From the IMG/VR virus record IMGVR_UViG_2630968808_000005, positions 1 through 11,206 of that record: DNA of 11,206 bases. The stretch is one strand, 5' to 3'. Below the pieces are notes generated by a model. That model was not told the origin of the DNA. It saw only the letters and a program-made list of their open reading frames with translations, and did no database searches. This document shows, piece by piece, positions 2,658 through 10,816 of this stretch (position 1 is the stretch's first letter; each line of letters starts with the position of its first letter). This DNA is from a virus. Lineage: Duplodnaviria; Heunggongvirae; Uroviricota; Caudoviricetes. A program made the translations under genes and the position numbers.

Positions 2658-2678
2658 ATAGGTCCACGGTGGACCTAT
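2658..2678. promoter_or_regulatory. Mnt operator (Omnt), a perfect palindrome centred on the Pant start region
   Basis: ATAGGTCCACGGTGGACCTAT, with symmetric half-sites GGTCCAC/GTGGACC, matches the P22 mnt operator and lies just downstream of the Pant -10. Confidence 0.8.
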
Positions 2679-2854: not shown

Positions 2855-2923
2855 AGTTGAAGCCCCAACTGCGGGAACAGTCAGGGCTTCGGTTGTCAGT
2901 AAATCCGTGGAGAAAAACCAACA
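2855..2923 (-). ncRNA. sar: Probable sar antisense RNA (small antisense regulator of ant translation)
   Basis: In P22, sar is a ~68-nt RNA transcribed leftward from a promoter inside the 5' end of ant, across the ant ribosome-binding site into the arc-ant spacer. Here a minus-strand -10 TATACT (plus 2930-2935) lies at the ant start, and the 69-bp interval back to the arc stop fits that size. Ends are inferred, not mapped. Confidence 0.45.
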
Positions 2924-3825
2924 TGAATAGTATAGCAATTTTAGAAGCAGTGAACACCTCTTATGTACCATTCAACGGTCAGCAAATTATCACCGCCATG
3001 GCTGCCGGAGTTGCATATGTTGCGATGAAGCCAATCGTTGAAAACCTTGGAATGAGCTGGTCAACGCAGCAAACAAAACTCATGAAGCAGATTAGCAAAT
3101 TCAACTGTGTTCATATGAACATGGTTGCCGCTGATGGGAAGCTTCGTAAGCTACTCTGCCTTCCTTTGAAGAAGTTAAATGGATGGCTGTTCAGCATCAA
3201 CCCTGAGAAAGTTCGTGCTGACATCCGTGATAAACTGATTCAGTACCAGGAAGAATGCTTTACTGTACTGCATGACTACTGGACAAAGGGAAAGGCAGAA
3301 AATGCACGTAAGAAAACATCTGTTGATGACAGGACTCCGCTTCGTGATGCTGTAAATATGCTAGTCAGCAAAAAGCATCTAATGTACCCAGAAGCTTATG
3401 CAATGATTCATCAGCGTTTCAATGTGGAAAGTATTGAAGAGCTTGATGCATCTCAGATACCGCAAGCCGTAGAGTACATCCACAGGGTAGTGCTTGAAGG
3501 TGAATTTATCGGCAAACAAGAGAAGAAAACCAACGAGCTTTCTGCAAAAGAAGCAAACAGCCTTGTATGGTTATGGGATTATGCCAACCGCTCACAGGCA
3601 TTATTCCGCGAACTGTATCTGGCGCTAAAACAAATTCAATCGAACTATTCCGGCAGATGCTACGACTATGGCCATGAGTTCTCGTATGTTATCGGAATGG
3701 CGAGAGACGTTTTAATCAATCACACACGAGATGTTGATATTAATGAGCCAGACGGACCAACGAATCTTTCCGCATGGATGAGACTTAAGAATAAAGAATT
3801 ACCTCCTTCAGTACATAACTACTGA
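2923..3825 (+). CDS. ant: Antirepressor Ant, 300 aa
   Basis: ATG at 2923 preceded by GGAG (2909-2912). The position directly downstream of arc, the 300-aa size and the N-terminus [21 protein letters not shown]... match P22 Ant as I recall it. The N-terminal extension from 2857 in the ORF track is rejected. Confidence 0.88.
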
Positions 3826-3925: not shown

Positions 3926-6094
3926 ATGACAGACATTACAGCCAATGTGATCGTATCAATGCCTTCGCAACTCTTCACTATGGCGCGTTCTTTTAAAGCC
4001 GTAGCTAATGGCAAAATTTATATCGGTAAAATTGACACTGACCCGGTAAATCCAGAAAACCAGATTCAGGTTTATGTGGAGAACGAAGACGGCTCTCACG
4101 TTCCTGTTTCGCAACCAATCATCATTAACGCTGCCGGCTATCCGGTATACAACGGACAGGTGTCGAAATTTGTCACCGTTCAGGGCCACAGCATGGCTGT
4201 ATACGATGCGTATGGCGTGCAGCAGTTTTACTACCCTAACGTGCTGAAGTACGACCCGGATCAGTTCAAAACTCAGTTAGAAGCCGCACAAGGGGCGAGC
4301 CTGGTAGGGTATCGCTATAAAGACGCTCCTAACGCTACTGTGCGTAAAGTCTCTGACGTTCTGGACGAGCGTGTAAGCCTTTGGGATTTCCACTGTGACT
4401 CAAGCGGCAACGTCATCCAGCCCGGCCCTAATGTAGACAGTCGTCAATATATTCAGAATGCCATTGATTATCTGAATGCACATGGTGGTGGGACTCTGGT
4501 TATCCCACCAGGGAAGTGGTGGCTGAATTCGTATGGCCGTCCAGAAAAGATTTCCAGCTATGCTGGAGTTATCCAGCTACTCAGTAATGTTGACATCTAC
4601 TTTGAAGCGGGCAGCACCGTCGCTCTGACTACGTTCTTTAATGAAAAAGCGTATTGCGTTTTCTGTGGTTTTAATGGGAACGACCCGGCAACGTCTGCAT
4701 CGCTGAATAACTGCCATATTTATGGTTCGGGCATTATCGACTGCGGGCCTACAAACAAACAACCAATCGGTAGCGCCCTGTGCTACGCCATTGGTACAGG
4801 TAGGTCTTATGATTGTAGCATCCGTGGCATTACCATCACTAATGGAGACCTTACCTGGGCGGCAACTCTGGGCTGGAATGGCTACGGCAATAACACAGTA
4901 GTAGATGGGGTGACGGTAACTAGCTGCAAAAAGACTGATATTGATCGCAACGTGGATCAGTCGTTGTTTTATGTAGGTTGCCCTTATTCTGGTGTCAGAA
5001 ATTGCTACATGAACCCGTCGGCAGATACTGGTTTCGCAAACAGGGTCTCTGCTGGTGTAGAGCTACATCAACATAATACATTCTGCGATAACAATCACAT
5101 GACTGGGTTGATGCGCGGTGTCTATGTGGTTATGCACGGTGCAGAAGCGGCTGGACAAGGTTTGTACATGTACAATATTAGCGTGTGCAATAATACCGCA
5201 AGTGTCGCGGGGCAATTTGTCACCCTGACAGCAGACCAGAAGGTGGCGATCACCCATATACATAACGTGATTATTGCTAATAATATCGCTGTTATTGAAC
5301 CGCCTAAAGATCCAAATCAGGAAATAGGCCGAATATTCGTTAACAGCGAGATGTGGAAGGACACTCCCAGGGACTCTAACACAGAGCGGGTGCTCGTGAC
5401 TGGTAACATTTTCCATTGCCCGATAACTCTGCCAGGGAGCGTCTTCTTTGCTTATAGAATTAGTACCCGTAACTACCAATTCTCAGGGAACATGGTGGAT
5501 GCTCAAAAAATCATGTCAGGGGACGGGCTTGGGGTAACAGATCAACTTGAGCTTCGCAATATCATATGGGATTCATCGAATAGCCTGGGGAACTCATGGC
5601 TCGGCCAGCGGGGTAAAAACACCAACCTATTTGATATTTATGCAGCAGCGGTAGTTAGCTGCCATTTTGATATTACATTGCCGTATGAGGATAGCTCAAT
5701 TGCTCATGTGTTTTACACGCCTGATGGCTGTAGTGTGGATTATACCGTGGTTAAGGTTAATGCTGAGCGAGTGCCGGAGGGCGTCGTAGGTGTAAGGATG
5801 TCTCAAGCAAACCTGGAGAAGGTTTCTAACCATGTGAGTTATCCAGTCACGATTAGCTTCGGAAGTTACGACGCAAATGGCGCTACGTTGTGTTTTAGCG
5901 TAGATACTACATATGGATGGGTAGGTTCTGCTACTGCGATAAGTCACAGTGACAACACAAACATAACGCCTCCTGGTTGTTATGCCGCTACAGAAACCGA
6001 TCAACTTCAAGGAGTGGGTTGGTCGCATACGAGTGGGGCTAAGTCATACAAGCAGAGGGTGCTATTACGTAGCCGATCAACCCTTCCTGTCTAA
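3926..6094 (+). CDS. Tailspike protein, 722 aa: P22-type N-terminal head-binding domain fused to a different beta-helix receptor-binding/depolymerase body
   Basis: Residues 1-~120 ([78 protein letters not shown]...VLKYDPDQF) match the conserved head-binding domain of P22 gp9 and relatives. The remainder does not match the P22 endorhamnosidase as I recall it, and the protein is longer (722 vs 667 aa). GGAG Shine-Dalgarno at 3914-3917. Confidence 0.9.
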
Positions 6095-6146: not shown

Positions 6147-6177
6147 AATAAAAAATCCCCGCTAGGCGGGGATTTTC
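6147..6177. terminator. Bidirectional rho-independent terminator between the convergent tailspike and gtrC genes
   Basis: ATCCCCGC (6155-6162), loop TAG, GCGGGGAT (6166-6173), flanked by AAAAA upstream and TTT downstream; the U-tract is better for the minus-strand (gtrC) transcript. Confidence 0.65.
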
Positions 6178-6194
6178 AATCTTTTATAACACAA

Positions 6195-7658
6195 TTAATT
6201 CATGCAATCTTTTTTGCTAAAATCAACAACTATATTTACCCCTTCATGGTATAGCTTATAGTCTTGATTACTGGTTACTAACTTATAATTGCAAAAGTCC
6301 CTGAGTGAGCTATTGACTATTTCACTATTATACCCAGGGTCCATTTGCTTCAAACCGTTTATTCCCATGTAATAATGCGCCCACATCCAGTTTCCAAAAT
6401 AACTAACTACTAGCCCATTTAGCAATGGGAAATTCTTGGATGAGTTTGTAAGTATGCTTGATCTGGGTGGCTCACCATTAAAAATAATATAGTTTGTATT
6501 GTAATCGAATTCTTTCGTATCTTCTTTTATTGAATCTATTATTTGTTTATCAACAGAGGATTGATGCTTGCTGGAATTAGCATATGCGCATGTAAAAATA
6601 ATCATGTATGCATACATCGGCAGAACAACCAATGACGGTACTTTGCTTTCTTTGCACGCCAGAGTCGCCAGGAATAAGACAAAAAGCAAATAGGAGCCAA
6701 CGCCTATGTACAACCGTGAAAAACCTACCATTGGGTTATCAAGTGGTAAAAGAGATCCTATCGTGGCGACTGGAGTCACAATTATTACAAGTAAAGAAAC
6801 AACAAAAATAAACCAACCAAACTTACCTTTATATCCTCTTAAATACCTATAAGAAATTACCAAAGCGGAAAGTAAGGAGATTGCAATAAGAACTGGCATG
6901 ATGAATTCCCCCATGCCATTAGGTAGTATTACCCCTTCTATATGATAGTAATAGGATTTTAAGTTACTGATTACTGTGTTCAGAAGATCAGCAGAAACCC
7001 TTGGGTGGTTAGCACTGTGAGAGGACTCCAAAGTCAAAGGCAATATCACCTTCATATAGAGAGCCAGCCCTAACAAAGTGCTTAAAACGCGTATAAACGA
7101 TAATTTTATTATTTCAAAAGGAGATGCCAGCTTATAAACATCATAAAAGAATAGCAGAGATGTAAAAATAAGTATTATATTTACAGATGCTTGATATAAA
7201 CACATTACACCAACCACTAAAGCCACCTTAATTAAAAGGTTGATATAATGATTATTTGATAAAGTAAATAAAAAAGAAAAAGACAGAACAGCGGAAAACA
7301 GGATTGTCAGGCTATCAAACCTGTAACTAACAACCTCAACAATAAATGGATTTATTAAAAAAGACAAAGGGAGCAGGAAAAGCCCTTTTTTGTTATTGAA
7401 AAACTCTTTGCCAAATCTATAAAAAACCCATGACAGCATGGCACAAGCAACAAGGAGCGGAGCAGGGGCAATGTCTGCCATTGTGCCACTAAACATAATA
7501 ACAGACATCAATATATCAGACAGAGGACGCCCATCTTCCCACCAAAATCTGTAACCTAGCGTAGACCGCCCAATATCGTCAATGTAATAAATGTTTGCTA
7601 ATATGATGGGGGCCACCAGTAGCAAAATAATGATGAAATATTCCTTTATTTGTTTCAC
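6195..7658 (-). CDS. gtrC: GtrC-type serotype-specific O-antigen glucosyltransferase (polytopic membrane protein, 487 aa); specificity unknown
   Basis: Third gene of the gtr operon, with its start overlapping the gtrB stop (ATGA). Highly hydrophobic with many predicted TM segments and a C-terminal soluble domain. Visibly AT-rich compared with its neighbours, as is usual for gtrC genes. Assignment is by synteny and topology; GtrC proteins share little sequence similarity. Confidence 0.7.
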
Positions 7659-8578
7659 GCTTCATCCCCATTTTTTAAAATATATCTAGGCCTGTTCTTG
7701 GATTCGGTGTAAATCCTCCCGATGTACTCACCAAGCACCCCAATGCCAATAAGTTGTACGCCACCAAGAAACAGAATAGAAACCAGCAATGAGGGGTAGC
7801 CTCGCACCGGATTGCCAAAGGCGATAGTGTCTATAATCATCCATGCACCATAAATGAACGACAGGCCTGCTACCAACAATCCAATATAAGTCCACATGCG
7901 CAGAGGGAAGGTAGAGAAACTGGTTATCCCCTCAAGGGCAAGGTTCCATAACTTCCAGCCATTGAATTTTGAATCACCGGCAATCCTTTCAGCCCTGGTG
8001 TATTCAACGATATCAGTGTTCCCGCCAACCCAGCTAAGAATGCCTTTCATAAAGAGGTTGCGCTCAGGAAGAAGCTTGATGTTTTCCACCACCGCTCGGG
8101 ACATCAGGCGGAAATCACCTACATTCTCCTCAATTTTAGGATTGCTTATTTTATTGTGGAGCTTATAGAACCACTCAGCCGTTTTTCGCTTCAGTCTGCC
8201 ATCCGTTGAGCGGTCAGATCGTTTAGCAAGCACCATGTCAGCACCTGCTAGCCACTTTTCAATCAGATGAGGAATGACCTCAATCGGGTCTTGCAGGTCA
8301 ACATCAATAGGAATAACGGCATCACCTGTTGCATGGTCTAACCCTGCAAACAATGCGGGTTCTTTACCAAAGTTTCGTGTAAATGACAGCGGAACAACTA
8401 GAGGATCTGAAACAGCCAGAGCGTTAATGATTGACTCCGTAGCGTCTTTGCTGCCGTCATTTATGAAAACAATTTCCACTTCGTATGGCTTCAACTCTTC
8501 GAATTCACGTACCGTTTTATAAAAAATTGGTATTGCTTCTTCTTCATTGAAGACAGGAACTACAAGAGATATCTTCAT
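7655..8578 (-). CDS. gtrB: GtrB bactoprenol glucosyltransferase (GT2 family, UDP-glucose:undecaprenyl-phosphate glucosyltransferase), 307 aa
   Basis: N-terminus [20 protein letters not shown], the DxD-type motif in [10 protein letters not shown], and two C-terminal TM helices are typical of GtrB/DPM1-like enzymes. The start overlaps the gtrA stop. Confidence 0.9.
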
Positions 8579-8937
8579 TTCGCATCCCTAAAGACAATGA
8601 ACTTTGAATAGACGAAACCGCACACCAGGCTGATGGCGGAGAAGGTGACAAGAGTGACAATTGGAGGAAGTGAACATCTATCAGCAGCCCATCCAACAGT
8701 AGCACTCAGTGTTCCCATGAACCCGACATATAACATGTAGCGCATCGTTGTAGTTGATGCTTTGAATGTGAATTTTGCATTCGCGAAGAAGCTAAAACTC
8801 ACAGCCACAACAAAACCTGCGAAGTTTGCAAGAGCTTGGTTTGTATGCGCGGCATAGATACAAACACCAAAAACCACCCAGTGTATAAGGGTGTTCAGCA
8901 CTCCAATCGAGGTGTACTTTGCAAATAGCTTTAACAT
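8575..8937 (-). CDS. gtrA: GtrA flippase (small 4-TM membrane protein, 120 aa)
   Basis: 120-aa hydrophobic protein with four predicted TM helices; first gene of the gtrABC operon, with the size and position typical of GtrA. Confidence 0.85.
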
Positions 8938-9649
8938 TTCTTCTATCAGCTAATAATCAAAGGCATGAAGTCTATCATCCAAGTCTCAATCGATCGATAC
9001 TTGCGTTAGTTGATGAGAAAAAACTCTGGCACACAAGGCTTTGCAATGGCTTGCAAGGTTTTGTTTCTATCAGATAGTGGTTAAGGTGGATCACTCCACC
9101 TTTTCATCAAGCCAATCCGCCCACCACTGCATCATTTCTCTGCGCTTAACGTAGTGGATGCATCACTATCACCCTGTAATGGCTTATTACTGGTTTGCAG
9201 ACAGGTAGGCATGAACATATGCCTGCGCATGAAGATGGAACTAGTCCGGATGCGATATTTTTGGTGATCACGTACATCATCAACGAAGTGCGTTATGGTG
9301 AGTTTGATGACTACCCGCTGAAGTGAAAATTGTGTTGTGTACCAAATTGCGTACCAAACTAAAATCACAAATCATGAAACCCTTGTTCATGGCGGTTCTC
9401 AGGGGTGTTGCGCGTAATCGTGAAACAAAAAGGTAGATTGTTGCTTACCGTCATTCATCATTAGGTTAAATCCGTTATTTCTGCTGTCTGCCAGAGTATC
9501 AAATATCACCGTACTAATCAGCTTTAGCGCCACAAGATCATGTCAGATAAAAATGAGAGGGTAGTCACATTTTCTTGCACTTTATTCCAGCCAGTTCATA
9601 AGTATTTCCGTAAAAAGAACAGCTATTTGAAACTCCTGAGGGTTTGCTG

Positions 9650-10816
9650 TTGAAACGCCGACTTATTATTGCTGCTTCTTTGTTCGTTTTTAACTTATCG
9701 TCTGGTTTTGCGGCGGAAAACATTCCTTTTTCACCTCAGCCTCCAGAGATTCATGCCGGGTCCTGGGTACTGATGGATTACACCACCGGACAGATCCTCA
9801 CCGCGGGTAATGAGCATCAACAGCGCAATCCCGCCAGCCTGACAAAGCTGATGACGGGTTATGTCGTGGATCGCGCTATCGATAGTCATCGCATTACGCC
9901 AGACGATATTGTCACCGTGGGGCGCGATGCGTGGGCGAAAGATAATCCGGTGTTTGTCGGTTCTTCACTGATGTTTTTGAAAGAGGGCGATCGCGTATCG
10001 GTACGTGATTTAAGCCGTGGTTTAATTGTGGATTCCGGAAATGACGCTTGTGTTGCACTGGCTGACTATATTGCCGGTGGGCAACGGCAGTTTGTTGAAA
10101 TGATGAACAACTATGCCGAGAAGCTGCATCTCAAGGATACGCATTTTGAAACAGTGCATGGTCTGGATGCACCTGGCCAGCATAGCTCGGCTTATGATTT
10201 AGCTGTGCTTTCTCGCGCTATCATCCACGGCGAGCCCGAGTTTTATCATATGTACAGTGAGAAAAGCCTCACCTGGAACGGTATCACTCAGCAAAACCGT
10301 AACGGGTTATTGTGGGATAAAACCATGAATGTTGACGGCCTGAAAACGGGTCATACTTCTGGTGCCGGGTTTAATCTCATTGCTTCGGCTGTAGATGGGC
10401 AGCGTCGTCTCATTGCAGTGGTAATGGGGGCTGACAGTGCAAAAGGTCGTGAGGAAGAGGCAAGAAAATTACTACGTTGGGGGCAACAAAACTTTACTAC
10501 GGTGCAAATTTTGCACCGTGGGAAAAAGGTCGGAACGGAACGCATCTGGTATGGCGATAAAGAAAATATCGACCTGGGAACGGAACAAGAGTTCTGGATG
10601 GTGCTACCGAAAGCCGAAATTCCACATATCAAAGCCAAATATACCCTTGATGGTAAAGAACTCACCGCGCCAATTAGCGCCCATCAGCGGGTAGGGGAAA
10701 TTGAACTTTACGACCGTGATAAACAGGTGGCGCACTGGCCGCTGGTTACCCTGGAATCTGTCGGGGAAGGCGGCATGTTTTCCCGCCTGAGTGATTATTT
10801 CCACCATAAGGCCTGA
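9650..10816 (+). CDS. dacD: D-alanyl-D-alanine carboxypeptidase DacD (PBP6b), host chromosomal gene
   Basis: Signal peptide, the SxxK active-site motif (ASLTKLMTGY), SGN (DSGND) and KTG (LKTGHTSG) motifs of class-C low-molecular-weight PBPs. The sequence matches E. coli DacD as I recall it. Start chosen as the TTG at 9650 (GAGG at 9638-9641, ~8 nt spacing, 388 aa); the ORF track's TTG at 9644 is the alternative. Confidence 0.9.
   Translation: MKRRLIIAASLFVFNLSSGFAAENIPFSPQPPEIHAGSWVLMDYTTGQILTAGNEHQQRNPASLTKLMTGYVVDRAIDSHRITPDDIVTVGRDAWAKDNPVFVGSSLMFLKEGDRVSVRDLSRGLIVDSGNDACVALADYIAGGQRQFVEMMNNYAEKLHLKDTHFETVHGLDAPGQHSSAYDLAVLSRAIIHGEPEFYHMYSEKSLTWNGITQQNRNGLLWDKTMNVDGLKTGHTSGAGFNLIASAVDGQRRLIAVVMGADSAKGREEEARKLLRWGQQNFTTVQILHRGKKVGTERIWYGDKENIDLGTEQEFWMVLPKAEIPHIKAKYTLDGKELTAPISAHQRVGEIELYDRDKQVAHWPLVTLESVGEGGMFSRLSDYFHHKA

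What the first reader, a model, noticed from the sequence alone, without database searches (positions are those of the whole stretch)
8938..9643. Prophage-host junction without a tRNA; attachment site unresolved, next to dacD
gtrA is the last phage gene and dacD the first host gene, so the att site must lie in this ~700-bp interval. I see no tRNA gene or tRNA 3' fragment, so this is not the tRNA-type integration of classic P22. In the E. coli K-12 gene order as I remember it, dacD is divergent from sbcB, and the sbcB locus has been reported as an integration site for some enterobacterial prophages; sbcB is not in this window, which fits a prophage sitting between the two genes. The interval also contains a perfect 8-bp-stem hairpin with an embedded Dam site (AAGGTGGA-TCAC-TCCACCTT, 9083-9102) followed by T residues. 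It could be a plus-strand terminator insulating dacD from phage transcription, or an att-associated inverted repeat. Its arms share pentamers with the Mnt operator half-sites (GTGGA/TCCAC), which is probably coincidence.
Basis: partly seen in the sequence, partly recalled or inferred. Interest (0 to 1): 0.45.

Follow-up and report, generated by a model that had tools for sequence, protein, structure and literature searches.

The report
Known sbcB prophage attachment site (attR)
The interval is the right-hand junction of a P22-like prophage inserted in the first codons of the host gene sbcB, at a 13-base attachment site already described for phages 2851 and Sf101, so it is ordinary; the hairpin is a leftover from a dead integrase gene.

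Summary
The junction is real and I located it exactly. Host DNA starts at 9413. The crossover core is CGTAATCGTGAAA (9413-9425), identical to the published 13-bp attP core of Stx2c phage 2851 and the P22/Sf6-like Shigella phage Sf101, both of which integrate in sbcB. There is no tRNA and no Rfam match.

It was wrong that sbcB is absent. The core lies inside sbcB (codons 13-17), and the gene's first 16 codons remain in the window (9461 to 9413, minus strand) as a truncated 20-codon ORF.

In E. coli F1005, which has the same gtrA-attR arrangement, a 39.7-kb prophage sits between sbcB and dacD. It has the core at its other end, an integrase 99% identical to those of mEp234 and Sf101, and a phage-supplied replacement N-terminus for SbcB.

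The rest of the interval is a patchwork of gene remnants: a hairpin annotated as a terminator in HK620 and SfII (9033-9064), the last 18 codons of an IntS/HK620-type integrase (9091-9147), a UmuD-like remnant (9142-9326) and tandem arm-type repeats (9335-9358).

It lies 311 bp from the core and is broken without compensation in 4 of 7 relatives. This is already known biology and of low interest.

The parts
8575..8937 (-). gtrA, the last intact prophage gene (context)
   Evidence: Pfam GtrA_DPMS_TM, E=1.8e-13. About 88-91% DNA identity to gtrA of HF4s and of phages SfI, SfII, SfIV and SfV.
8938..9032 (.). gtrA upstream region, shared with other gtr-carrying phages. It contains TCTATCA-type repeats and a CGATCGAT palindrome.
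   Evidence: Alignment with HF4s. The Sf phages match up to window 9062. Repeat family D1.
9033..9064 (+). Hairpin 1: a 14-pair stem (3 G-U pairs) with a T-rich 3' side. It corresponds to the feature annotated as a terminator in HK620 and SfII.
   Evidence: Folds at -15.7 kcal/mol, z=-3.1 on the plus strand and -7.9 on the minus strand. HK620 'terminator' at 38289..23 and SfII 'putative rho-independent terminator' map here. 10-12 Watson-Crick pairs are kept in 5 relatives.
9083..9102 (.). It straddles the stop codon of the integrase remnant.
   Evidence: The stop codon TGA is 9091-9093 on the minus strand. The stem is broken in mEp234, 1717, F1005 and HF4s with no compensatory change.
9091..9147 (-). 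3' remnant of an IntS/HK620-type tyrosine integrase gene: the last 18 codons (KRREMMQWWADWLDEKVE) plus the stop.
   Evidence: 18/18 aa identical to the HK620 Int C-terminus. Hits to the intS 3' end in many E. coli genomes. Aligned with HF4s and HK620.
9142..9326 (+). C-terminal remnant of a UmuD/HumD-like S24 peptidase gene. The open part is 9195-9326.
   Evidence: 48% identity to the last 44 aa of the HK140 UmuD-like protein, E=4e-12. PGAP annotates the homologous stretch in strain JBEHAAB-19-0176 as a frameshifted S24 peptidase lacking its N-terminus. No Pfam hit for the 43-aa piece.
9194..9412 (+). P arm of the 2851-type attP. With sensitive search the shared module extends back to about 9016.
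   Evidence: 92-93% identity to mEp234, Stx2 phage 1717 and other sbcB-integrating phages from 9194. blastn extends the match to 9016 in mEp234, Sf101, 2851 and 1717.
9335..9358 (+). Tandem arm-type repeats TTGTGTACCAAA / TTGCGTACCAAA, presumed integrase arm-binding sites.
   Evidence: Repeat family D2. GTACCAAA occurs only at these two places in the window. In F1005 its only 4 copies in 48.5 kb are two near each prophage end. Protein binding is inferred, not shown.
9413..9425 (+). attR core CGTAATCGTGAAA, the crossover sequence shared by attP and attB.
   Evidence: Unique in the window, with 0 expected by chance. It is the only block identical in the window, mEp234 attP, 1717 attR and K-12 attB. 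It matches the annotated 13-bp features in JQ182732 and FJ188381 and the published core of 2851 and Sf101 (PMC4159516).
9399..9461 (-). Orphan 5' end of sbcB: 16 native codons (9461 to 9414) fused to 4 phage-derived codons and a stop (MMNDGKQQSTFLFHDY|AQHP*).
   Evidence: Translations of the window and of K-12. The K-12 sbcB annotation maps its start codon to window 9461.
9462..9649 (.). Host sbcB-dacD divergent intergenic region, left intact by the insertion.
   Evidence: Collinear with K-12 and with thousands of E. coli genomes. 100% identical to F1005 and JBEHAAB-19-0176.
9650..10816 (+). dacD, the first intact host gene (context)
   Evidence: Pfam Peptidase_S11, E=9e-105, plus PBP5_C. RefSeq annotation of the homologous gene.

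Best explanation
The interval is the attR junction left by site-specific integration of a P22-like, gtrABC-carrying prophage into the 5' coding region of the host exonuclease I gene sbcB. The integration uses the already described '2851-type' integration module.

Shown:
- The 13-bp core CGTAATCGTGAAA (9413-9425) is the only block common to phage attP and bacterial attB. Left of it the sequence is phage P arm. Right of it the sequence is host: the sbcB start, the sbcB-dacD intergenic region, then dacD.
- In a genome with the same right end, the same core recurs at the other prophage end. There it sits next to a tyrosine integrase 99% identical to those of mEp234 and Sf101, and the phage's P' arm supplies a new start codon and 15 codons that keep the sbcB frame open.

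Inferred:
- The integrase (outside this window) binds the GTACCAAA arm repeats and exchanges strands within the core.
- The hybrid sbcB is expressed.

The remaining roughly 470 bp between gtrA and the core is non-coding debris that travels with this att module. It holds an IntS-type integrase 3' end with its downstream terminator hairpin, and a UmuD-like gene 3' end. At most, together with hairpin 1, it weakly terminates plus-strand transcription.
For: Boundary and core:
- Prophage-free E. coli, including K-12, match only from window 9413 onward, across sbcB and dacD.
- The four-way alignment of window, mEp234 attP, 1717 attR and K-12 attB shows a 13-bp common core at 9413-9425, unique in the window.
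- Depositors annotate the same 13 bp as attP or as an insertion duplication. The Sf101 paper gives the same sequence for 2851 and Sf101 and shows integration in the 5' end of sbcB.

sbcB fragment: orphan sbcB translation.

Whole prophage in E. coli F1005:
- attL core at L006 6441-6453.
- Hybrid SbcB N-terminus MTDTDKQPTFLFHDY|ETFG.
- Integrase 99% identical to mEp234 and Sf101.

Frequency: 49 E. coli genomes carry the gtr-attR-dacD arrangement, and 223 carry at least 80% of the interval.

No RNA gene: no tRNA and no Rfam family.

Gene remnants.

Hairpin not conserved.
Against: - The window ends before the left prophage end. The cognate integrase and the second core copy are seen only in related genomes, not in this one.
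- Two exact-pattern scans of species-representative genomes did not find the source genome.
- In F1005 the attR core differs at its first base (TGTAATCGTGAAA), so the strictly repeated block there is 12 bp.
- No consensus promoter was found for the hybrid sbcB, so its expression is unproven.
- Integrase binding to the arm repeats is inferred from position and repetition only.
Confidence: 0.93

Rival explanations
1. The hairpin at 9083-9102 is a working plus-strand intrinsic terminator. Alone or in tandem with hairpin 1, it insulates attR, sbcB' and dacD from phage transcription.
For: - Perfect 8-bp stem followed by TTTTC when the stem is read as GGTGGA/TCCACC.
- -14.2 kcal/mol, z=-3.0 on the plus strand.
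- The two hairpins together fold at z=-4.4 on the plus strand.
- The segment is kept in every 2851-type att module examined. In phages such as mEp234 it lies downstream of plus-strand tail-fibre genes.
Against: - Not called by the terminator scan.
- The T-run is short.
- The inner three pairs are broken without compensation in 4 of 7 relatives. Only the outer 5 pairs are invariant, and the right-arm variation is a synonymous change in the integrase codons of intact genes.
- In this window the plus strand upstream is antisense to gtrCBA, so there is little to terminate.
- A strong terminator already lies after the tailspike gene at 6153-6175.
Confidence: 0.2
2. The junction was not made by integration of this particular P22-like phage. 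The P22-like genome instead acquired its right end (9012-9412) by homologous recombination with another prophage, or a remnant, already sitting in sbcB. The att site would then be inherited rather than used by this phage.
For: - The segment 9012-9643 is 97.8% identical to the right end of a lambda-like prophage with Lom and tail-fibre genes in strain JBEHAAB-19-0176.
- The interval is visibly mosaic.
- The Sf101 paper reports frequent IS-disrupted remnants and Sf101-like int at sbcB in Shigella.
Against: - F1005 has a complete 39.7-kb P22-like prophage with this right end, a matching integrase and an attL.
- Sf101, a P22/Sf6-like phage with this module, was isolated as a free phage and shown to integrate at sbcB.
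- Either way, the identity and position of the att site are unchanged.
Confidence: 0.15
3. The prophage uses a tRNA-type attachment site, as P22 (thrW) or Sf6/HK620 (argW) do, and a tRNA fragment is hidden in the interval.
For: The interval contains the 3' end of an IntS/HK620-type integrase gene, whose family targets argW.
Against: - No tRNA found by ARAGORN and no Rfam tRNA at E<=1.
- Only 18 codons of that integrase remain.
- In HK620 the attP core lies upstream of int, 1.3 kb away, and that region is absent here.
- The flanking host genes are sbcB and dacD, not argW or thrW neighbours.
Confidence: 0.01

Closest known systems
Shigella flexneri phage Sf101 (KJ832078), a P22/Sf6-like serotype-converting phage that integrates in sbcB
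   Same: Same podovirus (Lederbergvirus) architecture: tailspike, then an O-antigen modification gene on the opposite strand, then attP and int. Same 13-bp core CGTAATCGTGAAA, and integration in the 5' end of sbcB. Its P arm matches window 9011-9442 at 86%. Its integrase is 99% identical to that of the F1005 prophage, which shares this window's right end.
   Different: The cargo is oacB (an O-acetyltransferase) rather than gtrABC. Sf101 has about 70 bp more in the P arm. The host is Shigella.
Stx2c phage 2851 / Stx2 phage 1717 and lambdoid phages mEp234, HK544 and HK140 ('attP type 2851')
   Same: Same core, same P arm including the IntS and UmuD-like remnants, and the same target sbcB. The sbcB site is a standard Stx-prophage locus in O157 (PMC8309913).
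   Different: These are lambda-like siphoviruses or Stx phages with unrelated structural genes and cargo. Only the integration module is shared.
HK620 / HF4s / CPS-53 (IntS) int-gtrA junction
   Same: Window 8938-9148 is collinear with the gtrA-int junction of HF4s. Window 9042-9151 is 95.5% identical to HK620 1-110. The same hairpins follow the int stop codon.
   Different: Here only the last 18 codons of int survive. The IntS attP and the argW specificity are gone, replaced by the 2851-type module.
Classic P22 attP/thrW integration
   Same: A P22-like prophage with conversion genes next to att.
   Different: No tRNA is involved. The target is a protein-coding gene, and the phage replaces its 5' end rather than the 3' end of a tRNA.

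Membership tests
2851-type (sbcB) phage attachment site, attR form | 13-bp core CGTAATCGTGAAA at the phage/host boundary | tested here: met
   Exact match at 9413-9425, unique in the window. Same as the annotated and published cores.
2851-type (sbcB) phage attachment site, attR form | The core lies in the 5' coding region of sbcB, with host sequence continuing into the sbcB start and dacD | tested here: met
   K-12 homology starts at 9413. The sbcB start codon maps to 9461. Translation gives MMNDGKQQSTFLFHDY, matching K-12.
2851-type (sbcB) phage attachment site, attR form | The phage-side arm is homologous to attP of 2851-type phages | tested here: met
   92-93% identity to mEp234 and 1717 over 9194-9412. 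86-89% over 9011/9016-9442 for mEp234, 1717 and Sf101, and 87.5% over 9016-9425 for 2851.
2851-type (sbcB) phage attachment site, attR form | Cognate 2851-type tyrosine integrase and a second core copy (attL) at the other prophage end | not testable with these tools
   The left end is outside the 11.2-kb window, and the source genome was not found. In E. coli F1005, which has the same right end, both are present: attL core at L006 6441-6453 and an integrase 99% identical to those of mEp234 and Sf101.
tRNA-type prophage att site (P22 thrW, Sf6/HK620 argW) | A tRNA gene or tRNA 3' fragment at the junction | tested here: not met
   ARAGORN finds 0 genes. Rfam finds 0 matches at E<=1.
Rho-independent terminator (for hairpin 9083-9102) | G+C-rich stem directly followed by a U-run | tested here: inconclusive
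   Stable stem (-14.2 kcal/mol), but only TTTT then C after a shortened stem. Not called by the scan.
Rho-independent terminator (for hairpin 9083-9102) | Stem conserved or compensated in homologous sequences | tested here: not met
   4 of 7 relatives have 1-2 broken pairs, and there are no compensatory changes.
IntS/HK620-type integrase gene | A complete tyrosine recombinase ORF of about 385 aa | tested here: not met
   Only the last 18 codons and the stop remain. Homology to HF4s and HK620 ends at about 9148-9151.

The most novel reading that the evidence does not exclude
Integration rewires transcription on both sides of the core.
- The displaced host sbcB promoter and its first 16 codons now point, on the minus strand, into the prophage towards gtrABC, 476 bp away. 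Host-driven read-in could therefore contribute to expression of the O-antigen conversion genes.
- The body of sbcB now depends on a phage-supplied start codon and on whatever promoter the P' arm provides, which would put exonuclease I under phage-linked control.

Neither effect appears in the two papers I read, PMC4159516 (Sf101) and PMC8309913 (O157 integration sites). I could not read the original phage 2851 paper.
Probability: 0.12. Interest if true: 0.35.

Novelty: already known. Interest (0 to 1): 0.12.

Why it matters
It matters little beyond correct annotation. The site, its 13-bp core and its use by both Stx phages and a P22-like serotype-converting phage are published.

The practical value is an exact coordinate for the prophage end (9412/9413), and recognition that the annotated 'intergenic' 700 bp holds an sbcB 5' fragment and two gene remnants. 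It also shows that gtrABC O-antigen-modifying P22-like prophages occupy the same locus as Stx2c phages in E. coli, so they could compete with them for it. The hairpin should not be annotated as an att element.

Tried and rejected
- tRNA and tmRNA search and Rfam at a permissive threshold: nothing.
- Two exact-pattern scans of species-representative genomes, one for the source genome and one for the attR junction: nothing. The left end of this very prophage therefore could not be examined.
- Pfam on the 43-aa UmuD-like remnant: no hit. Its identity rests on BLASTP to HK140 gp28 and on PGAP's pseudogene call.
- One Pfam call failed because the frames contained stops.
- Consensus promoter scans found no promoter for gtrA, none for the orphan sbcB within the intergenic region, and none for the hybrid sbcB in F1005. 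The only promoter-like site (9693-9665, minus strand) lies inside dacD and is also present in K-12.
- Link to the Mnt operator: rejected.
- A Dam/OxyR-type phase switch upstream of gtrA: considered, then dropped. Only one GATC lies within 150 bp of gtrA. The comparison with Salmonella P22 gtr is from memory.
- Hairpin as an att-associated inverted repeat: rejected because of its distance from the core, its origin as coding sequence, and the lack of covariation.

Full report
**What is there**

The window carries the right end of a P22-like prophage:
- P22-type antirepressor (2857-3825).
- Tailspike with the P22 head-binding domain and an HK620-type C-terminus (3926-6094).
- gtrC, gtrB and gtrA on the minus strand (6195-8937).
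- After the interval, the host gene dacD (9650-10816).

All of these were identified by Pfam. ARAGORN finds no tRNA or tmRNA anywhere in the window. Rfam gives no match at E<=1 in 8800-9750.

**Locating the breakpoint**

Megablast of 8500-10200 against 5,426 complete E. coli genomes shows that prophage-free strains, including K-12, match only from window 9413 onward. Those matches are annotated 'sbcB | dacD'. In K-12 the sbcB CDS starts 48 nt inside that match, which puts its start codon at window 9461 on the minus strand.

On the phage side, Stx2 phage 1717, mEp234 and other phages match from 9194 up to the boundary. Their depositors annotate a 13-bp 'duplication due to insertion' or 'prophage attachment site (type 2851)'.

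A four-way alignment of the window, mEp234 attP, 1717 attR and K-12 attB shows one block common to all four: CGTAATCGTGAAA at window 9413-9425. It occurs once in the window, with 0 expected by chance.

The Sf101 paper (PMC4159516) gives exactly this 13-mer as the attP core of phage 2851 and of Sf101. It also shows by junction sequencing that Sf101, a P22/Sf6-like serotype-converting phage, integrates in the 5' end of sbcB. sbcB is also one of the four standard Stx-prophage loci in O157 (PMC8309913).

**The core lies inside sbcB**

On the minus strand the core reads TTT CAC GAT TAC G, which is F13-H14-D15-Y16 and the first base of E17.
- The window keeps sbcB codons 1-16 fused to four phage-derived codons and a stop: MMNDGKQQSTFLFHDY|AQHP*.
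- K-12 reads MMNDGKQQSTFLFHDYETFG.

From memory and not tested here, D15 and E17 are catalytic residues of exonuclease I. That would explain why this attB is so conserved.

**The other prophage end, seen in a relative**

The window stops short of the left end, and two exact-pattern scans of species-representative genomes did not find the source genome.

E. coli F1005 (NZ_OY754353) matches 8500-10200 over its full length at 95.8%. It carries a complete P22-like prophage of about 39.7 kb between sbcB and dacD, with these features:
- The core recurs at its left end, L006 6441-6453.
- Next to the core lies a 392-aa integrase 99% identical to those of mEp234 and Sf101.
- The phage's P' arm supplies a new ATG and 15 codons, so sbcB stays open: MTDTDKQPTFLFHDY|ETFG. 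PGAP annotates this hybrid as intact exodeoxyribonuclease I.
- The attR core in F1005 differs at its first base.
- No consensus promoter for the hybrid gene was found, so its expression is unproven.

49 genomes have the gtr-attR-dacD arrangement, and 223 have at least 80% of the interval.

**Anatomy of the rest of the interval**

- 8938-9148 is collinear with the gtrA-int junction of the P22-like phage HF4s.
- 9042-9151 is 95.5% identical to HK620 positions 1-110.
- 9094-9147 on the minus strand encodes KRREMMQWWADWLDEKVE, 18/18 identical to the C-terminus of HK620 Int. The stop codon is at 9091-9093. Many E. coli hits to this stretch are annotated as the 3' end of intS.
- 9142-9326 on the plus strand is the 3' remnant of a UmuD/HumD-like S24 peptidase gene. 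It is 48% identical to the last 44 residues of HK140 gp28. PGAP calls the homologous stretch a frameshifted, N-terminally truncated S24 peptidase pseudogene.
- 9335-9358 holds tandem TTG(T/C)GTACCAAA repeats. GTACCAAA occurs nowhere else in the window. In F1005 its only four copies are two in the P arm and two in the P' arm just upstream of int. This is the layout expected of arm-type integrase sites, but binding is inferred.

With sensitive blastn, the whole stretch from about 9016 to the core is shared by mEp234, Sf101, 2851 and 1717, and by a lambda-like prophage in strain JBEHAAB-19-0176. The remnants therefore travel with the integration module, whatever the phage type.

**The hairpin**

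The hairpin is real: -14.2 kcal/mol, z=-3.0. Several observations argue against a function of its own:
- Its right arm is the last three integrase codons plus part of the stop, and its loop contains that stop.
- It lies 311 bp from the core.
- Among seven homologous sequences the outer five pairs are invariant, but the inner three change without compensation. Four relatives have broken stems, and two have a G-U pair.
- The homologues in HF4s and F1005 fold at only -7.6 and -3.3 kcal/mol.
- The terminator scan does not call it.
- Perfect 8-bp hairpins are not rare here: four loci in the window against about 1.3 hits expected per shuffle.

The feature annotated as a terminator by the HK620 and SfII depositors corresponds to a different hairpin, 9033-9064. 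That one folds at -15.7 kcal/mol on the plus strand and is better conserved.

The resemblance to the Mnt operator is coincidental. The true operator is at 2658-2678 and has the pentamers in the reverse order.

**Verdict**

This is a correctly spotted but ordinary prophage-host junction. It is an attR of the published 2851/Sf101 type in sbcB, now placed to the base. Its statement about sbcB and its reading of the hairpin are not.

The only reading with some novelty is that integration re-aims the host sbcB promoter at gtrABC and puts sbcB under a phage-supplied 5' end. I could not test this. Hairpin 1, annotated elsewhere as a minus-strand terminator, lies in the way of any read-in.

Noticed in passing
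window 9415-9660: The host sbcB-dacD intergenic segment is 100% identical to two E. coli strains that also have occupied sbcB sites (F1005 and JBEHAAB-19-0176). Most E. coli genomes match the interval's host part at only 90-95%. A divergent flanking allele may be spreading together with the prophage end.
   Followed up: no
window 2658-2678: Perfect palindrome ATAGGTCCACGGTGGACCTAT, the P22-type Mnt operator, next to the antirepressor gene at 2857-3825 (Pfam P22_AR_N and P22_AR_C).
   Followed up: partly
window 6153-6175: Strong hairpin AAATCCCCGC-TAG-GCGGGGATTT between the convergent tailspike and gtrC genes. It looks like a bidirectional terminator.
   Followed up: no
window 8942-9084: Three TCTATCA-type repeats (8942, 8971, 9066) and a CGATCGAT palindrome (8990-8997) upstream of gtrA. 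Only one GATC lies within 150 bp of gtrA, so a four-GATC Dam/OxyR phase switch like that of Salmonella P22 gtr (recalled from memory) is not evident.
   Followed up: partly
window 9016-9150; phage 434 (OL657226) 24657-24777: The IntS 3' remnant with its hairpins is part of every 2851-type att module examined. A copy also sits in phage 434 and in lambda h434 hybrids. This points to an old recombination joint at about 9148-9151 that has been inherited widely.
   Followed up: partly
window ~9205 versus L002 (mEp234), L009 (Sf101), L003 (1717): The window, F1005 and JBEHAAB-19-0176 lack a stretch of about 70 bp (GAATGGATAGAGAACTGAGGATAAAAAGATATCCC...) that is present in the P arm of mEp234, Sf101 and 1717.
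   Followed up: no
L006 6486-6668 (E. coli F1005): The hybrid sbcB start and the integrase start are divergent and only 181 bp apart, with the P' arm repeats between them. No consensus sigma-70 promoter was found on either strand.
   Followed up: partly
window 3926-6094: The tailspike combines the P22 head-binding domain with an HK620-type C-terminal domain. No E. coli complete genome covers more than 59% of the whole window, so the tailspike/gtrC combination appears uncommon.
   Followed up: no
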